Origin: an uncultured Candidatus Saccharibacteria bacterium | Lineage (GTDB): Bacteria > Patescibacteriota > Saccharimonadia > Saccharimonadales > JAUPVS01 | Assembly: GCA_964627095.1 (NCBI GenBank) | Contig: CAZVKH010000001.1 | Span: 8,451 to 72,450 of the forward strand | Reading direction: 5' to 3' | DNA: 64,000 nt | Shown here: piece by piece, positions 1 through 57,287 of the stretch | Layout: every line of letters starts with the position of its first letter | Numbering within the stretch: the first letter of the stretch is position 1 | Translations under genes and position numbers: made by a program | The notes under the pieces: generated by a model | Told to the model about the DNA's origin: nothing | Seen by the model: the letters and a program-made list of their open reading frames with translations, nothing else | Database searches by the model: none

Positions 1-849
1 AGACCTGTCGTACTGTATGAATCAGGCGATACTACTACCGAAAACATCTTAATGGCCGCTGCTTGTACACCTGGTGAAACCGTAATCAAGATGGCCAGCG
101 CCAACTACATGGTGCAAGACTTGTGTTTTTACTTGCAAAAAATGGGCGTCAAAATTAGCGGCATCGGTAGTAGCACCTTGCGCGTTCAAGGCTTGAAAGA
201 AATAAAAAAGAATGTCACTTACGCCCCCAGCGAAGACCCGGTTGAAGCCATGACTTTTGTGGCCGCCGCCATTACAACCGACTCCGAAATCACCATCAAA
301 AGAGTGCCGATAGAATTTATGGAATTAGAGTTATTGAAGCTGGAAAAGATGGGCCTTAACTATGTCATGACCAAGACCTACAAAGCCGAGAACGGCCAGA
401 CCGACCTAGTTGACCTAACCATCAAGAAGCACAATGGCAGCCTGATTGCCCCGCACGACAAGATTCACCCCAACATCTTCCCAGGCCTGAATATTGATCA
501 CCTGCCCTACTTTGTGCCCATCGCCGCCGTAGCCAAAGGTCGCACCCTGATTCACGACTGGGTTTACGAAGACCGCGCCCTGATGTATACCGAAATGAAA
601 AAAATTGGCGTCAGCGTCGAGCTAGCCGATCCGCACCGAGTTTATATAGAAGGTCCGACCCGCTTTAAGGCAGCCGACTTAGTTTGCCCCAGCGGTATTC
701 GCCCGGCCGTTATGATTTTGATTGGCATGTTGGCGGCTCCCGGTAACTCGATGCTACGTAACGTCTACACCATCAACCGTGGTTACGAAGATTTGGCCGA
801 TCGTCTGAATTCTTTAGGCGCCAAAATCACCGTTCTACACGAGCTATAG
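1..849 (+). CDS. murA: UDP-N-acetylglucosamine 1-carboxyvinyltransferase, C-terminal part (5' end outside window)
   Basis: Frame 1 is open from base 1 (RPVVLYESGDTTTENILMAAA...), so the Met at 52 is internal. The tail ...INRGYEDLADRLNSLGAKI resembles the conserved MurA C-terminus. Confidence 0.85.
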   Translation, partial: RPVVLYESGDTTTENILMAAACTPGETVIKMASANYMVQDLCFYLQKMGVKISGIGSSTLRVQGLKEIKKNVTYAPSEDPVEAMTFVAAAITTDSEITIKRVPIEFMELELLKLEKMGLNYVMTKTYKAENGQTDLVDLTIKKHNGSLIAPHDKIHPNIFPGLNIDHLPYFVPIAAVAKGRTLIHDWVYEDRALMYTEMKKIGVSVELADPHRVYIEGPTRFKAADLVCPSGIRPAVMILIGMLAAPGNSMLRNVYTINRGYEDLADRLNSLGAKITVLHEL

Positions 850-883: not shown

Positions 884-961
884 TGGGGCGAATGATGGGG
901 ATCGAACCCACTACCTCCGGAACCACAACCCGGCGCTCTAACCAGATGAGCTACATTCGCC
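884..961 (-). tRNA. tRNA-His (GTG)
   Basis: The reverse complement folds as a cloverleaf with anticodon loop TTGTGGT. An extra 5' G(-1) opposes C73, the tRNA-His hallmark. CCA is encoded. Confidence 0.85.
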
Positions 962-1011
962 TTAAACAGGGGTGATTATAGCGCATTAGCGGCATAACAA
1001 CAAGCTGTACA

Positions 1012-1088
1012 TGGTGCCCCGGGTAGGACTCGAACCTACGGCCTTGAGCTTAGAAGTCTCCTGCTCTATCCAACTGAGCTACCAGGGC
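1012..1088 (-). tRNA. tRNA-Arg (TCT)
   Basis: Acceptor GCCCTGG/CCGGGGC, T arm GTAGG-TTCGAGT-CCTAC, anticodon loop CTTCTAA. Very similar to E. coli argU outside the anticodon stem, which here has G27.A43 and A31.G39 mismatches. Confidence 0.75.
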
Positions 1089-1200: not shown

Positions 1201-3627
1201 CTAACCTCGCTCGTCGAGCGTAGCTAACAATTCGGGGGCATCCAGCAACAGTACCTGCCCTGGGCTGGCCGTACCGGCTAGCAGCCGTTGCGCCACGACG
1301 TTTTCTACCGACCGCTGCACAACTCGGCGCAAGGGTCGGGCACCCAAACGGGGGTCATAACCTTTGTCTACAAGTAGCGCCTTGGCGGCATCGGTCAGGC
1401 TAACCGAAATTTTACGGCTTGCCAGAGTCTTATTAATACTGCCCATTAACAGGTCGACCACTTGCATCAGTTCTGGCTTAGTAAGTGGACGGAATAATAT
1501 AATCTCATCAAAACGGTTAATGAACTCAGGACGGAAGACGTTAGCATTGATAAGCTCGTTGACCAGCTCGTCTTCGAACTGCTCGAGCTGCTGGCCCTGG
1601 TCTATGCGCGCCCGAATATTCTCGGCGCCGGCGTTACTGGTGGCAATAATAATTGAGTCTCTAAAACTGATCGGTTTATTCTGTGAATCACGCAACATAC
1701 CTTCGTCGAGTAATTGCAGAAGCAGGTTCAGTACGTTGGGGTGGGCCTTTTCAATTTCATCAAATAAGACCACACTAAAGGGTTGTTTGGCAATTTGGGC
1801 ACATAGACTATAGGGGTCGGTGGCGCCGGTCGCCAGCAATCGGTTGGTGTCGTCGGGGTGCGAAAACTCATTAAGGTCAATTCGCACAATGCGGTCTTGA
1901 CCACCAAAATAGACATCGGCTAACGCCTTAGAAAGCTCGGTTTTTCCAACCCCGGTTGGGCCCAAGAACAAGAAAGTACCAATCGGCTTCTTTTCGTTAC
2001 CAACGCCAGTGCGGGCGCGTCTTAAAGCATCGCTCACCAGCTTAACGGCGCGCGTTTGGTTGATCATTCGTTGGTGAATCTTGGCCTCTAAGTTCAAAAG
2101 GGTATCTTTTTCTTCAAAGGTATCGGCTGTCTGGACCTTAATATCGAAGGATTTTTCGACACCCTGCTGAACTGAGCGGGCCGTAACAAAATGCTGCTGC
2201 TCCGGAAAGCCACAGGCTACATCAAGCAGCTTGAGTGCCTTACCAGGGAAGGCCTGCTCATGGATGTAGCGTTCGGCTAACTTGTAGGCCTCTTTAATGG
2301 CTTGATTCATTAGCACGACGCCATGTTTACCTTCGATAATTAATGTTTGATCTTCGATTACCTGAATAGTCTCTTCTTCGTTCAGCGGATTGACCACCAC
2401 TCGGTTTAGCGACTGGGTAAAGCCTGGGCTGGTTTGGGCAATCCTTAGCCATTCCTGATTGTCTAATGCCAATATAATCTTAAGGGCACCGCCTTCTAGA
2501 ACTGGCATCAGTACGCTGGACAAGTCCACAGAACCAGTACCTTCCCTTAGGAATAGCTGGGCTTCATCCAAGAACAAGACAACGTTCTTGGCGTGAATCG
2601 CTTCGTTAAAAATATGGATTAATAGTTCTTCAAGCTCACCCTTACCCTTGGCATTAGCGATCAGGTGTGATGCATTCAGCTCAATTACCTGCTGGTAACG
2701 CAAGTTCTGGGGAACATTTTTGGAATCTTGCAGAAGCCGCTGGGCCATGGTGTAGACCAGGGTTGTTTTTCCAACCCCAACATCACCCACCAAGACAGCG
2801 TTACGGCGACCAGGTTGAGCTAGTAAATGGATAATCTGATCAATTGTTTGGGCACGGCTATCGACTGGACGACGCAAGATGCCACCAGATTGCAAACCGT
2901 TGGTTATATTAAAGCCAACGTGGTTCAAAACTGGTGCCCAACCAAAACTAAGATCGCGGCCGACACCCCCGTAATGCCGCTTTTCGCGTTGGCGGTCGCG
3001 CATCATCCGCATATGATGACGCCAACTTACACCTCCCAGCACATCGTCACTATCAAGCTGTAGCTGAGCCAGGTGATGCTCATAGTGCGGTATCGACATT
3101 ACCAACCCAGCCACCAGAACAGCCGAATCGATCCGATCACTCGAAGTTGCCCGCGCAACATTAAGAGCAGTCTGCCAAACAACCGATTCTTGGGAACTCT
3201 CGGTCGATGACAGATTCTGCAAAAACTCCGGACCAATCGCAAAACGGGACCCGTAGAAATAGGCGCCCTGTTCATTGGCGACAAGTTTAGCCAGTGCCTG
3301 CGGTGACATATTGGGCTGCATCTTGGCCAATAGGCGCCGGCTAAGGACATCACTGACATCGCTGACAGTTTCGATTGACGATATCGGCGGCAAGTCCTTA
3401 AGCTCGCCGTAGTACCAAAAAAGCGGCATGGCTAGAGTGCCACTTAGGGCAAATAGTATATGGGCAATCATCTGCTGCTCAAAAAACACCCCCCAGAACC
3501 AAAAGAATAATGACAATACCACCGCCAACCAAGTGATTAGCCGCACAGATTGGTTATCTAAAATCTTTCCAAAGCGGGCTTTGGTGGCACGTGGACTTTG
3601 CAAATTGCAGTGAATCGGTGGGTTCAT
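1201..3627 (-). CDS. Clp/Hsp100-family double-AAA+ ATPase with N-terminal membrane anchor
   Basis: Two Walker A sites (GDVGVGKTT, GPTGVGKTE) and two Walker B sites (VVLFLDEA, VVLFDEIEKAH). Clp-type C-terminus GARPLRRVVQ. Two hydrophobic helices near residues 30-75. Confidence 0.8.
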   Translation of the reverse strand: MNPPIHCNLQSPRATKARFGKILDNQSVRLITWLAVVLSLFFWFWGVFFEQQMIAHILFALSGTLAMPLFWYYGELKDLPPISSIETVSDVSDVLSRRLLAKMQPNMSPQALAKLVANEQGAYFYGSRFAIGPEFLQNLSSTESSQESVVWQTALNVARATSSDRIDSAVLVAGLVMSIPHYEHHLAQLQLDSDDVLGGVSWRHHMRMMRDRQREKRHYGGVGRDLSFGWAPVLNHVGFNITNGLQSGGILRRPVDSRAQTIDQIIHLLAQPGRRNAVLVGDVGVGKTTLVYTMAQRLLQDSKNVPQNLRYQQVIELNASHLIANAKGKGELEELLIHIFNEAIHAKNVVLFLDEAQLFLREGTGSVDLSSVLMPVLEGGALKIILALDNQEWLRIAQTSPGFTQSLNRVVVNPLNEEETIQVIEDQTLIIEGKHGVVLMNQAIKEAYKLAERYIHEQAFPGKALKLLDVACGFPEQQHFVTARSVQQGVEKSFDIKVQTADTFEEKDTLLNLEAKIHQRMINQTRAVKLVSDALRRARTGVGNEKKPIGTFLFLGPTGVGKTELSKALADVYFGGQDRIVRIDLNEFSHPDDTNRLLATGATDPYSLCAQIAKQPFSVVLFDEIEKAHPNVLNLLLQLLDEGMLRDSQNKPISFRDSIIIATSNAGAENIRARIDQGQQLEQFEDELVNELINANVFRPEFINRFDEIILFRPLTKPELMQVVDLLMGSINKTLASRKISVSLTDAAKALLVDKGYDPRLGARPLRRVVQRSVENVVAQRLLAGTASPGQVLLLDAPELLATLDERG

Positions 3628-5894: not shown

Positions 5895-6541
5895 AATAAG
5901 GCTGTCTGTAAAACTACAGTAATAAGCAGGGGTACAAACAAGTTGTCGGTTCCAGCTACGGCTAGATTCTCTATAGCGGTGGCGGCCAAGGGTAGCCAGA
6001 TAAGTAAAGGCACAAGTGGCCAGGTCAAAACAGTCCCGCTAAGTATCACTGTGCCGGTTACTATAGTTAACGATAACGTAAAGAACATCAAGGTCCCGAC
6101 CAATGTCTTGGTGTAGTTACGAATACTGTATTTATGGATAATCCCGTACTTGGTGCCTACTATCGCTGCCAGACCATCAGCCAGAGACAGATGTAAAATG
6201 GCGGCTGTAAAGACTATTGGTTCTGGTGTTAACAGAGCCGTGACGCCTATTCCAATTGGAAAAAACAACTCTCCCCAGGTGCGACGATTAACGCTGTGAA
6301 CAGCATGAAAAATATGCTGTTGCATCGATATTATAATGACAGCCAAAAAGGCCAGGCTCATAAACTCTATTTCGCGCCAGGTTAAAAAATATGGCCAAAA
6401 GGCCACAAAGGTACCAACACCAATATGCACAAACTTGCGCGCCGACTCACCGCGCATAACTTTTAGGCGCCACAGTAGCTCAGAAACTGCCAGTATCGTA
6501 AACACCCCAGTTAAAGCTAACAGGAGTGGCACGTACTGCAT
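5891..6541 (-). CDS. CTP-dependent polyprenol/dolichol/phytol-kinase-like membrane protein (CdsA superfamily)
   Basis: Polytopic protein with motifs RKFVHIGVG, ADGLAAIVGTKYG and ENLAVAGTDNLFVP, typical of the phytol/dolichol kinase family. Confidence 0.6.
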   Translation of the reverse strand: MQYVPLLLALTGVFTILAVSELLWRLKVMRGESARKFVHIGVGTFVAFWPYFLTWREIEFMSLAFLAVIIISMQQHIFHAVHSVNRRTWGELFFPIGIGVTALLTPEPIVFTAAILHLSLADGLAAIVGTKYGIIHKYSIRNYTKTLVGTLMFFTLSLTIVTGTVILSGTVLTWPLVPLLIWLPLAATAIENLAVAGTDNLFVPLLITVVLQTALF

Positions 6542-7516: not shown

Positions 7517-7543
7517 CTCGAAGACCTCTCGTTTAGTTATGGA

Positions 7544-7726
7544 CTAGGCTTTTTTGGTGGCTTTTGACTTAGTAGCAGGCTCTGGTTCGTCGGCATCTGC
7601 AAAACCTTTGCGGATTTCTTTAGCCGACTGACCGACACTGCGTGCTAGTTCTGGTAGCTTTTTAGCACCAAACAGCAACAAAACAATCAATAAAACGATA
7701 ATTAATTCGTCTGTTTTTCCAAACAT
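7544..7726 (-). CDS. tatA: Sec-independent translocase TatA/E
   Basis: 60 aa: a transmembrane helix, then FGAKKLPELARSVGQSAKEIRKGF. GGAGG lies 10 nt upstream of the ATG. Confidence 0.85.
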   Translation of the reverse strand: MFGKTDELIIVLLIVLLLFGAKKLPELARSVGQSAKEIRKGFADADEPEPATKSKATKKA

Positions 7727-53730: not shown

Positions 53731-53806
53731 AGGGCAACGCACATCTGCAGCCATGCTCGGAATATATTCCTGCGCGTGGCTTTGATGACCGAACCTGGGC
53801 TACGCC
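53731..53806. repeat. copy B of the tRNA-adjacent structured intergenic element
   Basis: 65/76 identical to 26793..26868. Palindrome GGAATATATTCC (53759..53770) and hairpin GAACC/GGTTC (53791..53815). Confidence 0.55.
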
Positions 53807-53835
53807 CGACGGTTCAAGTCTTCTCTGTGACCAAG

Positions 53836-53862
53836 AAAAAAGACCCTTCTTGTGAAGAGTCT
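53836..53862 (-). terminator. rho-independent terminator of initiator tRNA
   Basis: On the minus strand, AGACTCTTC-ACAA-GAAGGGTCT followed by TTTTTT. The imperfect pair is G.U on minus only. Confidence 0.6.
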
Positions 53863-53869
53863 CTTTTCT

Positions 53870-53944
53870 TGGTAGCGGGGGCAGGACTCGAACCTGCGAC
53901 CTCGTGGTTATGAGCCACGCGAGCTGCCACTGCTCCACCCCGCG
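53870..53944 (-). tRNA. initiator tRNA-fMet (CAT)
   Basis: Very close to E. coli tRNA-fMet (CGCGGGGTGGAGCAG...GGCTCATAACC...AGGTCG.AGGTTC). The 1:72 position is an unpaired C.U. The anticodon stem ends in GG/CC. Confidence 0.8.
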
Positions 53945-54024
53945 TCGAGTTGAGCAAGCTATAGCATACCAGATGAAAGCTACTTATACAACATCGGTGG
54001 GAAATGTGGTAGAGTATCTTCACT

Positions 54025-54726
54025 ATGACCGATATGCTCGCTCCTTCAGCCGAAGCCGAAAAATTGCCAACAGATGACCCGACAACCATACTAGCACTTG
54101 AAGCACGCGACTTATTACTCGCCGCCAGCCAAGCCGAACCGGGCAGCCCGGATGAGGTAGCCGCCCTAGAGGAAGCCAATAGTCGCTTTAGCGAGCTGGT
54201 TAGCGAAACCCAGGAATTCCTTACCAAATTTGCTCTGAGCCGCCCCCACCCCAGGCATTTTGATGTGCAAGAAGTAGTCCAGGAAACCTACGCCCGAGCC
54301 TATAAGGGTTTACATAATTTTAGGGGTGACGCCAAGTTTTCTACGTGGCTATTTTACGTTTTGCGCAGCTGTACTGATAACTACTGGAGACGCGAGGCAC
54401 GTCACAACAATCAGCCCCTACCCGAAGAAGACGGTTCAGATCCATCCTTGGTTGGTAGTATTGCCGTGGTGTCATCATTAGATACTGGCGAGGTCGACAG
54501 CTTTTTGGACTACAGTAGCCTTTCGCCGGAACTAGAAGCAATGCTGGCCACTTTAAGTCCCAAGCAACAACAAGCTATTCGTATGCATGACGTAATGGGA
54601 CAAACCACTAAAGAATGTGCCGCGCAACTAGGTGTTAGTGAAATTAGTTTTAAGATGAACGTACACCGGGCTCGCCATAACCTACGCCGCGAATTCCCCG
54701 ATGCCAGAAACTGGTTAGAAGAATAA
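54025..54726 (+). CDS. sigma-70-family (group 4/ECF-like) sigma factor with an acidic ~70-aa N-terminal extension
   Basis: Region 2 (ETYARAYKGLHNFRGDAKFSTWLFYV) and region 4 (QQQAIRMHDVMGQTTKECAAQLGVSEISFKMNVHRARHNLR). Confidence 0.8.
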   Translation: MTDMLAPSAEAEKLPTDDPTTILALEARDLLLAASQAEPGSPDEVAALEEANSRFSELVSETQEFLTKFALSRPHPRHFDVQEVVQETYARAYKGLHNFRGDAKFSTWLFYVLRSCTDNYWRREARHNNQPLPEEDGSDPSLVGSIAVVSSLDTGEVDSFLDYSSLSPELEAMLATLSPKQQQAIRMHDVMGQTTKECAAQLGVSEISFKMNVHRARHNLRREFPDARNWLEE

Positions 54727-54728
54727 TC

Positions 54729-54756
54729 TTGACAAATTAGCAACTTCATGTATAAT
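54729..54756 (+). promoter_or_regulatory. consensus sigma-70 promoter TTGACA-N16-TATAAT
   Basis: Exact hexamers read 3 nt after the sigma-factor stop codon. Confidence 0.6.
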
Positions 54757-54764
54757 ACTTAGTG

Positions 54765-54776
54765 TTGTCATGACAA
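54765..54776. promoter_or_regulatory. perfect 12-bp palindrome TTGTCATGACAA at the predicted transcription start
   Basis: Self-complementary 12-mer 9 nt downstream of the TATAAT. Candidate operator. Confidence 0.35.
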
Positions 54777-54814
54777 AACAAACAACAAAATAAAACAACA
54801 GGAAACTACACACA

Positions 54815-54898
54815 ATGAAATCACAACTCGCCTACGAGTTCGCCCAAACCCAAGATCAGGCAGTTTCACAATTTGACGATCTAATCTCATCTTTGTAA
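54815..54898 (+). CDS. 27-codon acidic ORF (MKSQLAYEFAQTQDQAVSQFDDLISSL)
   Basis: Hand-translated. AGGAA lies ~10 nt upstream in a CA-rich leader. Bracketed by the consensus promoter and a terminator. Confidence 0.35.
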   Translation: MKSQLAYEFAQTQDQAVSQFDDLISSL

Positions 54899-54923
54899 AC
54901 CTACTCGATCAAACTCCCATAAA

Positions 54924-54956
54924 AGAGCCCTTTAAGCGCAAAGGGTTCTTTTTATT
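54924..54956 (+). terminator. rho-independent terminator
   Basis: AGAGCCCTTT-AAGCGC-AAAGGGTTCT followed by TTTTATT. The one imperfect pair is G.U on the plus strand. Confidence 0.6.
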
Positions 54957-55034
54957 GCCGTTCGCCTTTCAGCTAGCTGGTCAACAGAGGCAAAACATGG
55001 TATATTCACTGCTGTCCATGTAACAAGTTTATAG

Positions 55035-55111
55035 GGCGGCGTAGCTCAGTTGGTTAGAGCACAGGACTCATAAGCCTGGGGTCACAAGTTCAAATCTTGT
55101 CGCCGCTACCA
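55035..55111 (+). tRNA. elongator tRNA-Met (CAT)
   Basis: Closely resembles E. coli metT (GTAGCTCAGTTGGTTAGAGCACA..ACTCATAA....GGGGTCACA.GTTC.AATC). Acceptor GGCGGCG/CGCCGCT. A31.G39 mismatch. Confidence 0.8.
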
Positions 55112-55167
55112 AACTTATTTGATATCGCTTGTGTTTAACCCCGTTTGGGGTAATAATAAACGGTATT

Positions 55168-55842
55168 ATGGATATGGATCTTAAACCCCCGACGCAGCCC
55201 AAATATCAGCTTAAGGAAACTCCGCCACCCGGCGCAACGCCACCTGAACCGCAGATGGACGACCCCTTTAAAGTTGATCCGCCACCACCCGAACTAACCG
55301 TACCTAAACCAAAGAAAAAACGCAGCGGCAAAGCTAAAAAGGCTTTGCTGGTTATTTTAGTATTGGCTCTGCTTGGTGCGGCCGGCTATGGTATTTACTA
55401 CTGGCAACACCAGCAAGTCGACAAACTAGCTAAAGAAAACCAGGCTCTAACCGCCCAACTAGCTGCCGCCAATAAAAAAGCTAGTGATGCCGAAGCCGAG
55501 AACGCCAAGCTTAGCGAAGCAGCCACCCCGCCAACGGCCGATACTTTGGTAATTACGGCTGCTACCGCCGATTGCCAGGCCGAGGTTGACCCAGCCACTA
55601 AGAAGGCTTTGGTATACACCCAAGGCACGCAAGGCACTGACAAAAAGAAAGTGCTGTATTCGACTGATAAGACCTTTGCCAAGGTTAGCGCTACCTGTGC
55701 TGCCACCGCTAACGCCACCGAGCCAGCCACGCTGTACTATGCTAAATTAGCCGGTACTACCTGGACGGTCATCTATGCTGACACCGCCGAGCCCGACGCC
55801 GACGTAACTGCTTTGTACGCCATCCCAACTGAATTCAAATAA
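55168..55842 (+). CDS. hypothetical bitopic protein (Pro-rich N-terminus, transmembrane helix, coiled coil, C-terminal domain)
   Basis: ORF from the ATG at 55168. KKKRSGKAKK then a transmembrane helix. No motif recognised. Confidence 0.5.
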   Translation: MDMDLKPPTQPKYQLKETPPPGATPPEPQMDDPFKVDPPPPELTVPKPKKKRSGKAKKALLVILVLALLGAAGYGIYYWQHQQVDKLAKENQALTAQLAAANKKASDAEAENAKLSEAATPPTADTLVITAATADCQAEVDPATKKALVYTQGTQGTDKKKVLYSTDKTFAKVSATCAATANATEPATLYYAKLAGTTWTVIYADTAEPDADVTALYAIPTEFK

Positions 55843-57211: not shown

Positions 57212-57287
57212 GGGGGTGTAGCTCATCGGTCAGAGCAGGCGGCTCATAACCGCTTGGTAGATGGTTCAACTCCATCCACCCCCACCA
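57212..57287 (+). tRNA. tRNA with CAT anticodon, probably tRNA-Ile2 (lysidine substrate)
   Basis: Anticodon arm and variable region (GAGCAGGCGGCTCATAACCGCTTGGT) nearly match E. coli ileX (GAGCAGGCGACTCATAATCGCTTGGT). The cloverleaf is sound; the identity is inferred. Confidence 0.75.

What the first reader, a model, noticed from the sequence alone, without database searches (positions are those of the whole stretch)
54729..54956. Self-contained mini-gene after the sigma factor: consensus promoter, perfect palindrome at +1, CA-rich leader, 27-codon ORF, terminator
Seen in sequence: exact TTGACA-N16-TATAAT (54729..54756) starts 3 nt after the sigma-factor stop. A perfect 12-bp palindrome, TTGTCATGACAA (54765..54776), covers the predicted start site. 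A CA-rich leader with AGGAA precedes an ORF (54815..54898) encoding MKSQLAYEFAQTQDQAVSQFDDLISSL. A strong plus-strand terminator follows at 54924..54956. This is the best match to the sigma-70 consensus in the window, yet it drives only ~190 nt and is missing from the ORF track because it is under 60 aa. Inference: it is a highly expressed, operator-controlled small protein or small RNA. Its position next to an ECF-like sigma factor that has no visible anti-sigma gene makes a sigma-modulating peptide one possibility.
Basis: seen in the sequence. Interest (0 to 1): 0.6.

Follow-up and report, generated by a model that had tools for sequence, protein, structure and literature searches.

The report
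Conserved 27-codon small-protein gene in Saccharibacteria
The flagged "mini-gene" is a real, self-contained gene for a 27-amino-acid protein that belongs to a large, unannotated family found across Saccharibacteria. It always carries a near-perfect promoter and a symmetric control site, but it has no real tie to the neighbouring sigma factor, and its function is still unknown.

Summary
The window is from a Saccharibacteria (TM7) genome.

**What holds up**
- The 27-codon ORF is a real protein-coding gene. 28 distinct homologous sequences keep the frame open, and variability by codon position is 3 > 1 > 2. Close pairs give dN/dS of 0.07-0.19, and the other two frames are blocked by stops.
- The family has about 190 representative clusters. 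Nearly all are stand-alone proteins of 29-33 aa, labelled "hypothetical" or left unnamed, with no Pfam, NCBIfam, PHROG, PADLOC or PDB match.
- The whole cassette is conserved: an exact or near-exact TTGACA-N16/17-TATAAT promoter, a dyad centred 14-16 bp after the -10, an A/C-rich leader with a Shine-Dalgarno site, the ORF, and usually a terminator.
- The dyad sequence differs between lineages but stays palindromic through its very centre. Predicted RNA hairpins are weak. This favours a double-stranded DNA operator over a 5' RNA stem-loop.

**What does not hold up**
- The sigma-factor link is not supported. In relatives the slot upstream of the mini-gene is empty or holds an unrelated gene. The more persistent neighbours are tRNA-fMet and tRNA-Met.
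- No conserved RNA structure was found apart from the terminator.

The peptide's function and the protein that binds the dyad remain unknown.

The parts
54729..54756 (+). Sigma-70-type promoter: TTGACA (54729-54734), a 16-nt spacer containing a conserved GCAA (54740-54743), and TATAAT (54751-54756)
   Evidence: It is the only 12/12 match in the window. Fifteen of the 28 unique family sequences score 12/12 and five more score 10-11; the remaining eight score lower or lack upstream sequence. The pattern TTGACNNNNNNGCAANNNNRTGTATAAT hit only this gene in the loci held at that point.
54765..54776 (.). Perfect 12-bp dyad TTGTCATGACAA, centred 14 bp after the -10 hexamer (about +2 to +13 of the predicted transcript). 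It is a candidate operator.
   Evidence: The position is conserved, with the centre 14-16 bp after the -10. The sequence varies but stays palindromic: 99/108 Watson-Crick across the six innermost pairs, against 17-30% when the centre is shifted. Best arm length exceeded all 2000 shuffles. Predicted RNA hairpins are weak.
54763..54814 (+). Predicted 5' leader: A/C-rich, G-poor and unstructured, with the motif CAAAACAAAC just after the dyad and a Shine-Dalgarno-like AGGAA at 54800-54804. The transcription start is inferred, not measured.
   Evidence: Sequence. The same leader composition and a Shine-Dalgarno site occur in all homologues. RNAalifold predicts no conserved structure in the leader.
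54815..54898 (+). Small-protein gene of 27 codons plus stop: MKSQLAYEFAQTQDQAVSQFDDLISSL
   Evidence: The ORF is intact in 28 unique homologous sequences. Codon-position entropy is 27.3/18.4/38.1. dN/dS is 0.07-0.19 in close pairs. Stops occur in the other frames in 25-26 of 28 sequences.
54923..54958 (+). Intrinsic terminator (11-bp stem, 6-nt loop, T-run). It ends the mini-gene transcript and any read-through from the sigma gene.
   Evidence: Thirteen of 26 homologues pass a strict hairpin-plus-T-run scan with different stem sequences. Several others have imperfect stems by eye. About six have a second small ORF in this position instead.
54978..55111 (+). Downstream neighbour: a conserved promoter with TG-extended -10 (54978-55006) and tRNA-Met(CAT) (55035-55111). 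This is context, not part of the mini-gene.
   Evidence: A tRNA of this type lies within 65-802 nt of the ORF's 3' end in about 16 of 24 loci that have enough downstream sequence.
54025..54726 (+). Upstream neighbour: an ECF-type sigma factor gene. It appears to be a lineage-specific insertion between tRNA-fMet (53870-53944, minus strand) and the mini-gene promoter.
   Evidence: Pfam Sigma70_r2 and r4_2. Only one close homologue exists. It is absent from this slot in L010, L013, L027 and L156, and replaced by another gene in L153.

Best explanation
This is an autonomous, conserved gene for a 27-aa cytosolic protein. It belongs to a large, uncharacterised family of small proteins found so far only in Saccharibacteria.

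**Shown**
- The ORF evolves under purifying selection at the amino-acid level.
- Across the family it comes as one cassette: consensus promoter, dyad at about +2 to +14, A/C-rich leader with a Shine-Dalgarno site, ORF, and usually an intrinsic terminator.

**Inferred mechanism**
1. The housekeeping sigma factor drives very strong transcription from the consensus promoter.
2. A dimeric DNA-binding protein probably recognises the dyad over the start site and represses initiation or promoter escape. The gene would then be "maximal when on, but gated".
3. The unstructured leader gives efficient translation.
4. The terminator insulates the tRNA-Met gene downstream.

**The peptide**
The AlphaFold2 model of a 30-aa family member gives an extended N-terminal segment (L-A-[YF]-E-[FL]-x-P-T) followed by a C-terminal amphipathic helix. 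My best guess is that it docks onto a conserved intracellular partner.

**The sigma factor**
The sigma gene next door is an incidental insertion, not a partner.

**My step-wise confidence**

| Step | Confidence |
|---|---|
| Real coding gene | about 0.95 |
| Strong promoter | about 0.8 |
| Dyad is a protein operator on DNA | about 0.5 |
| Peptide binds an intracellular partner | about 0.4 |
For: **Coding**
- DNA-level searches, which do not depend on ORF integrity, found homologues in L010, L013, L014, L024, L027, L028, L030, L034 and L059. All have an intact ORF with the same C-terminal length.
- Over 28 unique sequences, codon-position entropy is 27.3/18.4/38.1. Window vs L153 gives pS 0.28 and pN 0.065. 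L153 vs L156 gives omega 0.07. Frames +1 and +2 carry stops in 26 and 25 of 28.
- The QLAYEF codons differ by synonymous changes only between the window and L010.

**Family size**
- 73 proteins in the 5.8-billion-protein database and 191 representative clusters at E <= 0.001. Nearly all are 29-33 aa and stand-alone.

**Cassette**
- Promoter table. Distant members L167 and L169 keep the promoter, a GTGATCAC dyad and the CAAACAAAAAC leader.

**Dyad acts on DNA**
- The six innermost pairs are 92% Watson-Crick, with 2-4 pair types at each of the five innermost positions.
- The two central pairs are complementary in 36/36 cases, with centres CATG, CGCG, TATA, TGCA and GATC. A minimum hairpin loop is 3 nt, so these cannot pair within one RNA strand.
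- Predicted 5' RNA structures range from 0 to -5.9 kcal/mol, 11 of the 15 are -2.1 or weaker, and they often do not use the palindrome.

**No RNA family or structure**
-.

**Peptide shape**
- AlphaFold2 mean pLDDT 82.6, helix at residues 18-29, N-terminus extended.

**Sigma independence**
-.
Against: - There are no expression data, so promoter strength, transcription start and peptide abundance are all inferred.
- No regulator has been identified. No transcription-factor gene is consistently nearby, and the dyad core occurs nowhere else in the window or in about 1.5 Mb of related loci apart from one intragenic chance hit.
- Half-site sequence and arm length vary between lineages. That is unusual for the operator of one conserved repressor.
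- Three single-step variants create G.T pairs, which would be tolerated in RNA, against two A.C cases. This tally is too small to decide.
- Metagenome members were retrieved with a peptide-plus-stop pattern, so their ORF integrity is not independent evidence.
- Peptide net charge flips between subfamilies, about -3 in the window's and about +3 in the largest (my own count from the sequences). This weakens the idea of a single conserved electrostatic interface.
Confidence: 0.7

Rival explanations
1. The dyad acts in the RNA. It would form a stem-loop at the extreme 5' end of the mRNA that protects it from 5'-end-dependent decay (RNase J or RppH type) and raises the peptide yield.
For: - The palindrome would sit within a few nucleotides of the predicted 5' end.
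- Its sequence varies with compensatory changes, and arm length varies, as expected for a stem.
- Three single-step variants (L059, L157, and L016/L159) give G.U rather than A.C pairs.
Against: - The two central pairs are complementary in 36/36 sequences with five different centre types. A hairpin needs a loop of at least 3 nt, so nothing at the RNA level would select for this.
- Predicted free energies range from 0 to -5.9 kcal/mol, and 11 of the 15 are -2.1 or weaker. The minimum-energy fold often ignores the palindrome.
- RNAalifold finds no supported 5' structure.
- Two lineages carry A.C mismatches: the L148/L151 type and L162.
Confidence: 0.15
2. The product is an exported peptide: a pheromone, a leaderless bacteriocin or PSM-like amphipathic peptide acting on the host cell, or a RiPP precursor.
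For: - It is very small, has no signal peptide, has a very strong promoter and has a predicted C-terminal amphipathic helix.
- The largest subfamily is cationic and contains Trp (..LLRIDRWLKKL).
- The N-terminal [YF]-E-[FL] motif loosely recalls leader-peptide recognition boxes. This is recalled from memory and was not tested.
Against: - No maturase, transporter or receptor gene is consistently adjacent in any of the loci examined.
- There are no Cys residues, no separate variable core and no double-glycine or signal motif. The whole peptide is conserved, with an invariant Glu and Asp.
- Net charge is not conserved.
- The family spans deep Saccharibacteria lineages, unlike typical bacteriocins and pheromones.
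Confidence: 0.12
3. The transcript works mainly as a small regulatory RNA, or as a dual-function RNA, and the ORF is incidental.
For: - The transcript is short (about 190 nt) with a strong promoter and terminator.
- Between the window and L001/L004 the region is about 98% identical in nucleotides, while the sigma gene has diverged (92% amino-acid identity; visibly more substitutions in its last ~80 nt).
Against: - There is a clear coding signature at larger distances.
- No Rfam match is found even at E <= 10.
- No conserved structure exists beyond the terminator, and the covariation term is unfavourable.
- The leader and 3' UTR diverge freely while the amino-acid sequence is kept.
Confidence: 0.05
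4. The peptide modulates the adjacent ECF-type sigma factor, acting as a minimal anti-sigma or co-factor.
For: - In the window, L001 and L004 it lies immediately downstream of the sigma gene.
- There is no terminator between the two, so sigma transcripts read into the ORF.
- No anti-sigma gene is visible nearby.
Against: - The adjacency is confined to one shallow lineage. The same slot is empty in L010, L013, L027 and L156, and holds an unrelated 480-aa ORF in L153.
- The sigma factor has one close homologue, against about 190 clusters for the peptide.
- The peptide has its own, much older promoter.
Confidence: 0.04
5. The ORF is a leader peptide of an attenuator that controls read-through into the downstream tRNA-Met gene.
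For: tRNA-Met lies 65-802 nt from the ORF's 3' end in about 16 of 24 loci, with a terminator in between.
Against: - The tRNA has its own conserved promoter.
- In several loci the tRNA is on the opposite strand (L014, L152, L161, L148), and in others it is absent (L167-L170).
- Selection acts on the whole amino-acid sequence, not on particular regulatory codons.
- No conserved alternative antiterminator pairing is found.
- The stop codon lies about 25 nt before the terminator stem.
Confidence: 0.03

Closest known systems
Classical start-site operators of strong promoters, for example lacO1 centred at +11 or LexA and TetR boxes overlapping the promoter (from established knowledge)
   Same: A dyad-symmetric site overlaps the transcription start of a strong sigma-70 promoter. 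From there a bound dimer would block initiation or promoter escape.
   Different: - No regulator is known.
- The half-site sequence differs between lineages (TTGTCA, TTGATA, TTGATG, TTAATCG, GTGA).
- Arm length varies from 4 to 7 bp.
- Symmetry runs through the very centre of the site.
Bacterial small proteins encoded by stand-alone short ORFs of 50 aa or fewer, missed by gene callers
   Same: - It is a stand-alone ORF of fewer than 30 codons with its own promoter, Shine-Dalgarno site and terminator.
- It falls below the length limit of common gene finders (from established knowledge).
- It is conserved at the amino-acid level.
   Different: - Many characterised examples are hydrophobic membrane peptides. 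This one is soluble, with an extended strand plus an amphipathic helix.
- It matches no described family in Pfam, NCBIfam, PHROGs, PADLOC or the PDB.
Phenol-soluble modulins and delta-toxin, and leaderless bacteriocins
   Same: Peptides of 20-45 aa made without a signal peptide, strongly expressed, and containing an amphipathic helix.
   Different: - No transporter or regulator is linked.
- The N-terminal half is non-helical and is the most conserved part.
- The window's subfamily is acidic.
- The family is conserved across deep lineages.
ECF sigma / anti-sigma gene pairs
   Same: A small gene lies directly downstream of an ECF-type sigma gene and can be co-transcribed with it.
   Different: - There is no anti-sigma domain, and 27 aa is too short for one.
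- The peptide has its own promoter.
- The adjacency is not conserved, and the peptide family is far more widespread than the sigma factor.

Membership tests
Protein-coding small ORF (real gene) | The reading frame is kept open in homologues that were found without reference to the ORF | tested here: met
   nhmmer and blastn DNA hits in L010, L013, L014, L024, L027, L028, L030, L034 and L059 all carry an intact ORF with Asp + 6 codons + stop.
Protein-coding small ORF (real gene) | The substitution pattern is typical of coding sequence: third position most variable, dN/dS well below 1, other frames closed | tested here: met
   Entropy is 27.3/18.4/38.1. Omega is 0.07-0.19 in close pairs. Frames +1 and +2 have stops in 26 and 25 of 28 sequences.
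Protein-coding small ORF (real gene) | The peptide is detected, or ribosomes occupy the ORF | not testable with these tools
   No proteomic or ribosome-profiling data are available.
Sigma-70-type promoter | -35 and -10 hexamers with a 16-18 nt spacer, conserved in orthologues | tested here: met
   12/12 in the window, the only such site. Fifteen of the 28 unique family sequences score 12/12 and five more score 10-11. Activity and the transcription start site were not measured.
Repressor operator (dyad bound by a dimeric DNA-binding protein) | Two-fold symmetric DNA site at a fixed position relative to the promoter, conserved in orthologues | tested here: met
   The centre lies 14-16 bp after the -10. 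Inner pairs are 99/108 Watson-Crick. The central pairs are 36/36 complementary with five centre types.
Repressor operator (dyad bound by a dimeric DNA-binding protein) | An identified cognate regulator, or further sites of the same motif forming a regulon | tested here: not met
   No second site occurs in the window or the fetched loci apart from one intragenic chance hit. No regulator gene is consistently nearby.
5'-terminal stabilising RNA stem-loop | A thermodynamically stable hairpin at the 5' end, with covariation confined to the stem | tested here: not met
   Predicted energies are 0 to -5.9 kcal/mol, with 11 of 15 at -2.1 or weaker, and the fold often does not use the palindrome. Complementarity extends into positions that would have to form the loop.
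Known RNA families (Rfam 15) | A covariance-model match at or near the gathering score | tested here: not met
   Only the flanking tRNAs score. Nothing overlaps 54729-54916 at E <= 10. The one weak hit nearby (ncr1015, minus strand, 54917-55026, 25.8 bits against a gathering score of 60) overlaps only the terminator. The expanded leaders of relatives also give no match.
Intrinsic (Rho-independent) terminator | A GC-rich hairpin followed by a U-run, conserved in function with a variable stem sequence | tested here: met
   The window has an 11-bp stem plus TTTATT. Thirteen of 26 homologues pass a strict scan with different stems, and others are imperfect by eye.
ECF anti-sigma factor / sigma-modulating peptide | Conserved adjacency or co-occurrence with the cognate sigma gene | tested here: not met
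   The sigma gene is absent from the slot in L010, L013, L027 and L156, and another gene is present in L153. The sigma factor has one close homologue.
ECF anti-sigma factor / sigma-modulating peptide | A recognisable anti-sigma domain | tested here: not met
   No Pfam or NCBIfam hit for 10 family members at E <= 10. At 27 aa the peptide is shorter than any anti-sigma domain (from established knowledge).
RiPP precursor / secreted pheromone | A conserved neighbouring maturase, transporter or receptor gene, and a leader-plus-variable-core layout | tested here: not met
   The neighbourhoods differ between loci and include tRNAs, DUF7144, Peptidase_S51, a Cho-like nuclease and tilS. The whole peptide is conserved, it has no Cys and it has no cleavage motif.
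Curated protein families (Pfam-A, NCBIfam, PHROGs, PADLOC, PDB sequences) | A significant profile match | tested here: not met
   No hit in Pfam, NCBIfam, PADLOC or the PDB. PHROGs gives only E >= 0.16.

The most novel reading that the evidence does not exclude
The cassette is a repressor-gated "burst" gene. When the dyad-binding protein lets go, the cell floods with a 27-32-aa peptide that docks by strand addition plus a helix onto a core machine and switches the physiology of the episymbiont. Candidate targets are a replication, translation or division hub; the window subfamily's QLAYEF loosely recalls clamp-binding QLxLx[LF] motifs, which is a resemblance recalled from memory and untested. 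Alternatively the peptide is released to act on the host cell. Either way it would be a Saccharibacteria-specific small-protein regulator or effector that annotation has missed.
Probability: 0.12. Interest if true: 0.8.

Novelty: new member of a known kind. Interest (0 to 1): 0.5.

Why it matters
**Why the gene deserves attention**
- Saccharibacteria have very small genomes and an obligate epibiotic lifestyle.
- A gene kept across deep lineages, with a perfectly conserved consensus promoter and a conserved control site, is likely to matter for their biology.
- The gene is invisible to annotation. The window's 27-aa subfamily is shorter than any family member held in the protein databases searched (28 aa or more). 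Longer members are labelled "hypothetical" or unnamed, with no domain.

**What it offers experimentally**
- A defined target: one peptide, one promoter and one 12-bp dyad.
- A natural strong, possibly switchable, expression cassette for the emerging genetic systems of Patescibacteria.

**A caution on method**
- Adjacency in a single genome, here to the sigma factor, can mislead about function.

Tried and rejected
1. **Sigma factor as an anchor for orthologous loci.** It has only one close homologue, so I switched to the DUF7144 neighbour.
2. **Promoter-only pattern in viral contigs.** It gave 53 hits, none with the peptide, so they are chance or unrelated promoters. The pattern is too unspecific for large collections.
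3. **Word-index protein search with the 27-aa peptide.** I repeated it with an alignment headed by a 62-aa stop-to-stop ORF. The exact look-up of the downstream 237-aa ORF found nothing, probably because the start codon was wrong. One contig (P0024) had no DNA available.
4. **First metagenome pattern.** The revised pattern gave 21 loci, of which 3 were chance hits (L163, L164, L166).
5. **Curated libraries.** Pfam, NCBIfam, PHROGs, PADLOC, PDB sequences and Rfam gave no match.
6. **Literature searches** on Saccharibacteria small proteins, promoters and the motif strings found nothing relevant.
7. **Longer proteins containing the motif** (P0223, P0313, P0281) are repeat or low-complexity proteins, not informative fusions.
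8. **CIRCE (HrcA) site in the TTAGCA spacer, or a second promoter formed by the dyad halves.** I considered both by eye and rejected them, because the arms and spacings do not fit.
9. **Regulon search for the dyad.** It found only the mini-gene itself and one intragenic chance hit in L066.
Full report
**1. The observation**

Reading 53800-55600 confirms each element.
- The sigma-factor ORF (54025-54726) carries Pfam Sigma70_r2, r4_2 and ECF domains and stops at 54724-54726.
- TTGACA (54729-54734), a 16-nt spacer and TATAAT (54751-54756) follow. This is the only 12/12 consensus promoter on either strand of the 64-kb window; the next best sites score 11/12.
- TTGTCATGACAA (54765-54776) is a perfect 12-bp palindrome. 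It is unique in the window even with one mismatch allowed.
- An A/C-rich leader with AGGAA (54800-54804) precedes ATG 54815.
- The ORF 54815-54898 encodes MKSQLAYEFAQTQDQAVSQFDDLISSL.
- A hairpin with an 11-bp stem and a T-run lies at about 54923-54958.

One caveat applies. Perfect 12-bp palindromes are common here: the window has 30, against about 16 in shuffles. The palindrome is therefore not significant on its own.

**2. Organism and relatives**

- The sigma factor has a single close homologue in 5.8 billion proteins: P0001, 92% identical, on a 1.4-kb contig.
- The DUF7144 membrane-protein gene 1 kb downstream has many relatives, named Candidatus Saccharibacteria, Saccharimonadales or Patescibacteria. 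The window is therefore from a Saccharibacteria (TM7) genome.
- Contigs of those relatives and 80 loci from species-representative genomes were searched with the mini-gene DNA.
- L001 and L004 (GCA_030916945.1) carry the mini-gene at about 98% nucleotide identity, while the sigma gene has diverged more.
- L010 is a more distant relative (DUF7144 76% identical). There the cassette sits between tRNA-fMet and tRNA-Met with no sigma gene. It has exact TTGACA-N16-TATAAT, N9, cTGTCATGACAa, an A-rich leader, a 27-codon ORF (MTRQLAYEFIPTNDQSITEVDEYLKSL) and a terminator.
- Further DNA-level hits are L013, L027, L030, L028, L059, L034, L014 and L024. L016 retains only the promoter, at a contig end.

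**3. Is it coding?**

- A peptide profile built from ten sequences matched only these loci. It matched none of the Actinomycetota DUF7144 loci.
- A degenerate peptide-plus-stop pattern retrieved 18 more true members from metagenomes, together with 3 chance hits.
- Across 28 unique core sequences, summed column entropy by codon position is 27.3, 18.4 and 38.1.
- Close pairs give pS well above pN. Window vs L153 is 0.28 against 0.065, omega 0.19. Window vs L013 gives 0.17. L153 vs L156 gives 0.07.
- The other two frames contain stops in 26 and 25 of 28 sequences.
- QLAYEF is encoded with four synonymous and no non-synonymous differences between the window and L010.
- The metagenome members were selected for an open frame, so they are not independent on that point. 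The DNA-retrieved members are independent.
- Invariant residues are one Leu, one Glu and one Asp. The consensus is x-L-A-[YF]-E-[FL]-x-P-T-x-[DN]-Q-x-I-L-x-[IV]-D-x-x-L-x-x-L, always with six codons between the Asp and the stop.
- RNAalifold on six transcripts finds only the terminator, with an unfavourable covariation term. Rfam finds nothing in the mini-gene.

The ORF is a real gene and the transcript is an mRNA.

**4. The family**

- The word-index search gave 73 proteins, all "hypothetical" or unnamed and none with a Pfam domain.
- The exhaustive profile search gave 191 representative clusters at E <= 0.001. Nearly all are 29-33 aa and stand-alone. Longer ones carry the motif at the C-terminus, which is consistent with over-extended gene calls.
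- Three long multi-hit proteins are repeat or low-complexity sequences.
- There is no match in Pfam, NCBIfam, PHROGs, PADLOC or PDB sequences.
- The ORF is not called in the closest public MAG. The database holds almost no member shorter than 29 aa, consistent with gene-caller length limits (the limit itself is from established knowledge).
- AlphaFold2 on a 30-aa member with a 42-sequence alignment gives mean pLDDT 82.6. The N-terminal segment is extended and residues 18-29 form a helix.
- Net charge is about -3 in the window's subfamily and about +3 in the largest subfamily (MKTSNGLAFEL..LLRIDRWLKKL). This is my own count from the sequences.

**5. The cassette is conserved as a unit**

- Fifteen of the 28 unique family sequences score 12/12 for the promoter and five more score 10-11. 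The remaining eight score lower or lack upstream sequence.
- Even the spacer is conserved: TTGACAAAaTAGCAAnnTnaTGTATAAT. That pattern hit only this gene in all loci held at the time.
- Distant members that are not next to tRNAs (L167, L169) keep the promoter, a GTGATCAC dyad, the CAAACAAAAAC leader, a Shine-Dalgarno site and a terminator.
- Terminators are present in most members, with unrelated stem sequences.
- In about six lineages a second small basic ORF (M[LI]IQDI[RV]P...) follows instead.

**6. The dyad**

- In 18 unique promoter-proximal regions the best dyad centre lies 14-16 bp after the -10 hexamer.
- The half-sites differ: TTGTCA|TGACAA, TTGATA|TATCAA, TTGATG|CATCAA, TTAATCG|CGATTAA, TGTTGA|TCAACA and GTGA|TCAC. 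There are also gapped forms, TTGAaTCAA and TTGAgaTCAA.
- The six innermost pairs are Watson-Crick in 99/108 cells, against 17-30% when the centre is shifted by 1-3 nt. The five innermost positions each show 2-4 pair types.
- Mean best arm length is 4.8, against 3.4 in shuffles, and none of 2000 shuffles reached the observed value.
- The two central pairs are complementary in 36/36 cases, with five centre types (CATG, CGCG, TATA, TGCA, GATC). These positions cannot pair within a single RNA hairpin.
- Predicted 5' RNA structures range from 0 to -5.9 kcal/mol. Eleven of the 15 are -2.1 or weaker, and they often do not use the palindrome.

I therefore favour a double-stranded DNA site bound by a symmetric dimer, placed where a repressor would block initiation or promoter escape.

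Several points count against this.
- The half-sites and arm lengths drift between lineages.
- No regulator candidate is linked to the cassette.
- The motif has no other copy in the window or in about 1.5 Mb of related loci, apart from one intragenic chance hit.
- Three single-step variants give G.T pairs against two A.C cases, which decides nothing.

**7. Context and the sigma factor**

- The commonest arrangement is tRNA-fMet (divergent), then the cassette, then a conserved extended -10 promoter, then tRNA-Met. A tRNA of this type lies within 65-802 nt of the ORF's 3' end in about 16 of 24 loci with room. It is sometimes on the opposite strand, and it is absent in L167-L170.
- The slot between tRNA-fMet and the cassette promoter holds different things in different lineages:
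  - the sigma gene in the window and L004;
  - an unrelated 480-aa ORF in L153;
  - nothing in L156, L013, L010 and L027.
- The sigma gene therefore looks like a recent insertion. It now reads into the mini-gene and uses its terminator. The sigma-modulator idea is not supported.
- The linkage to tRNA-Met is frequent but not universal. I treat it as retained synteny rather than functional coupling. An attenuator role is unlikely because the tRNA has its own promoter, its orientation varies, and selection acts on the whole peptide.

**8. Conclusion**

*Shown:*
- A real gene for a small protein, conserved across Saccharibacteria.
- A conserved promoter-dyad-leader-ORF cassette, usually ending in an intrinsic terminator.
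- No dependence on the sigma factor.

*Inferred:*
- Very high expression that is gated by a repressor.
- A peptide that docks onto an intracellular partner.

*Unknown:*
- The partner, the regulator and the physiological role.

It is a new, uncharacterised family of a known kind of feature, a small protein gene. Interest is moderate (0.5), for three reasons: strong conservation in a minimal genome, a clear experimental handle, and invisibility to annotation.

Noticed in passing
window 53870-53944 (-), 55035-55111 (+), 57212-57287 (+): Three tRNA(CAT) genes lie within 3.5 kb. The first has a C1.A72 mismatch, which marks it as initiator type. The second resembles elongator tRNA-Met. The third resembles the lysidine-modified tRNA-Ile2 type. 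The identities were judged by eye from the sequences, not tested. The trio is syntenic in L004, L010 and L013.
   Followed up: partly
L030 about 12192-12094 (-); L149 1494-1589 (-); L152 1867-1968 (+); L159 about 891-1025 (+); also L014 and L015: In about six lineages the peptide ORF is followed, about 25-40 nt later, by a Shine-Dalgarno site and a second conserved small basic ORF of 26-32 aa: M[LI]IQDI[RV]P..K...[RK].ILI. This makes a two-small-ORF operon. It is absent from the window.
   Followed up: partly
L014 about 5900-5800 (-), L152 about 1670-1750 (+), L159 about 712-840 (+), L016 1-114 (-), L034 about 5900-6025 (+): Some family members have a 40-90 nt insertion in the 5' leader. It contains a hairpin whose stem sequence differs between loci but stays complementary (TAGCGC..GTTGCT, ACAATG..CATTGT, GCGATG..CATTGC). 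It could be a regulatory RNA element. Rfam gives no match in the loci scanned: L016, L034, L152 and L159.
   Followed up: partly
L023 8351-8072 (-): The slot upstream of tRNA-Met carries a similar promoter, dyad (TTGTtACAA) and A-rich leader, but a different 41-aa ORF (MTKPKKINVRYIDSKV...CAFC). That ORF has no detectable similarity to the family and no homologue in the other loci. The ORF in the cassette may have been replaced.
   Followed up: partly
window 53945-54728, compared with L153 674-2116 and the same slot in L156, L013, L010 and L027: The short interval between tRNA-fMet and the mini-gene promoter is a variable insertion slot. It holds an ECF sigma gene in the window, a 480-aa ORF in L153, and nothing in four other relatives.
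   Followed up: yes
window, whole 64 kb: There are 30 perfect 12-bp palindromes, against 16 +/- 4 in mononucleotide shuffles. This is roughly a two-fold excess. I did not examine where they lie or why.
   Followed up: no
window 54978-55006, and the equivalent sites in L013, L010, L027, L028, L034, L153 and L156: The promoter ahead of tRNA-Met is itself conserved: TGGTCA/TAGCCA-N17-TATATT with a TG-extended -10, within GGCAAAACaTGnTATAtTcAC.
   Followed up: partly
window 54025-54195 (N-terminal ~57 aa of the sigma factor): The ECF-type sigma factor has an acidic N-terminal extension of about 57 aa before region 2. Its nearest relatives other than P0001 are at most about 33% identical over most of their length. 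It is an orphan sigma with no visible anti-sigma gene.
   Followed up: no
L024 (DATNAB010000095.1, labelled Verrucomicrobiia) 7541-7675: A contig binned as Verrucomicrobiia carries both the DUF7144 gene (51% identical) and a family peptide. The contig is probably Saccharibacteria DNA that was mis-binned.
   Followed up: no
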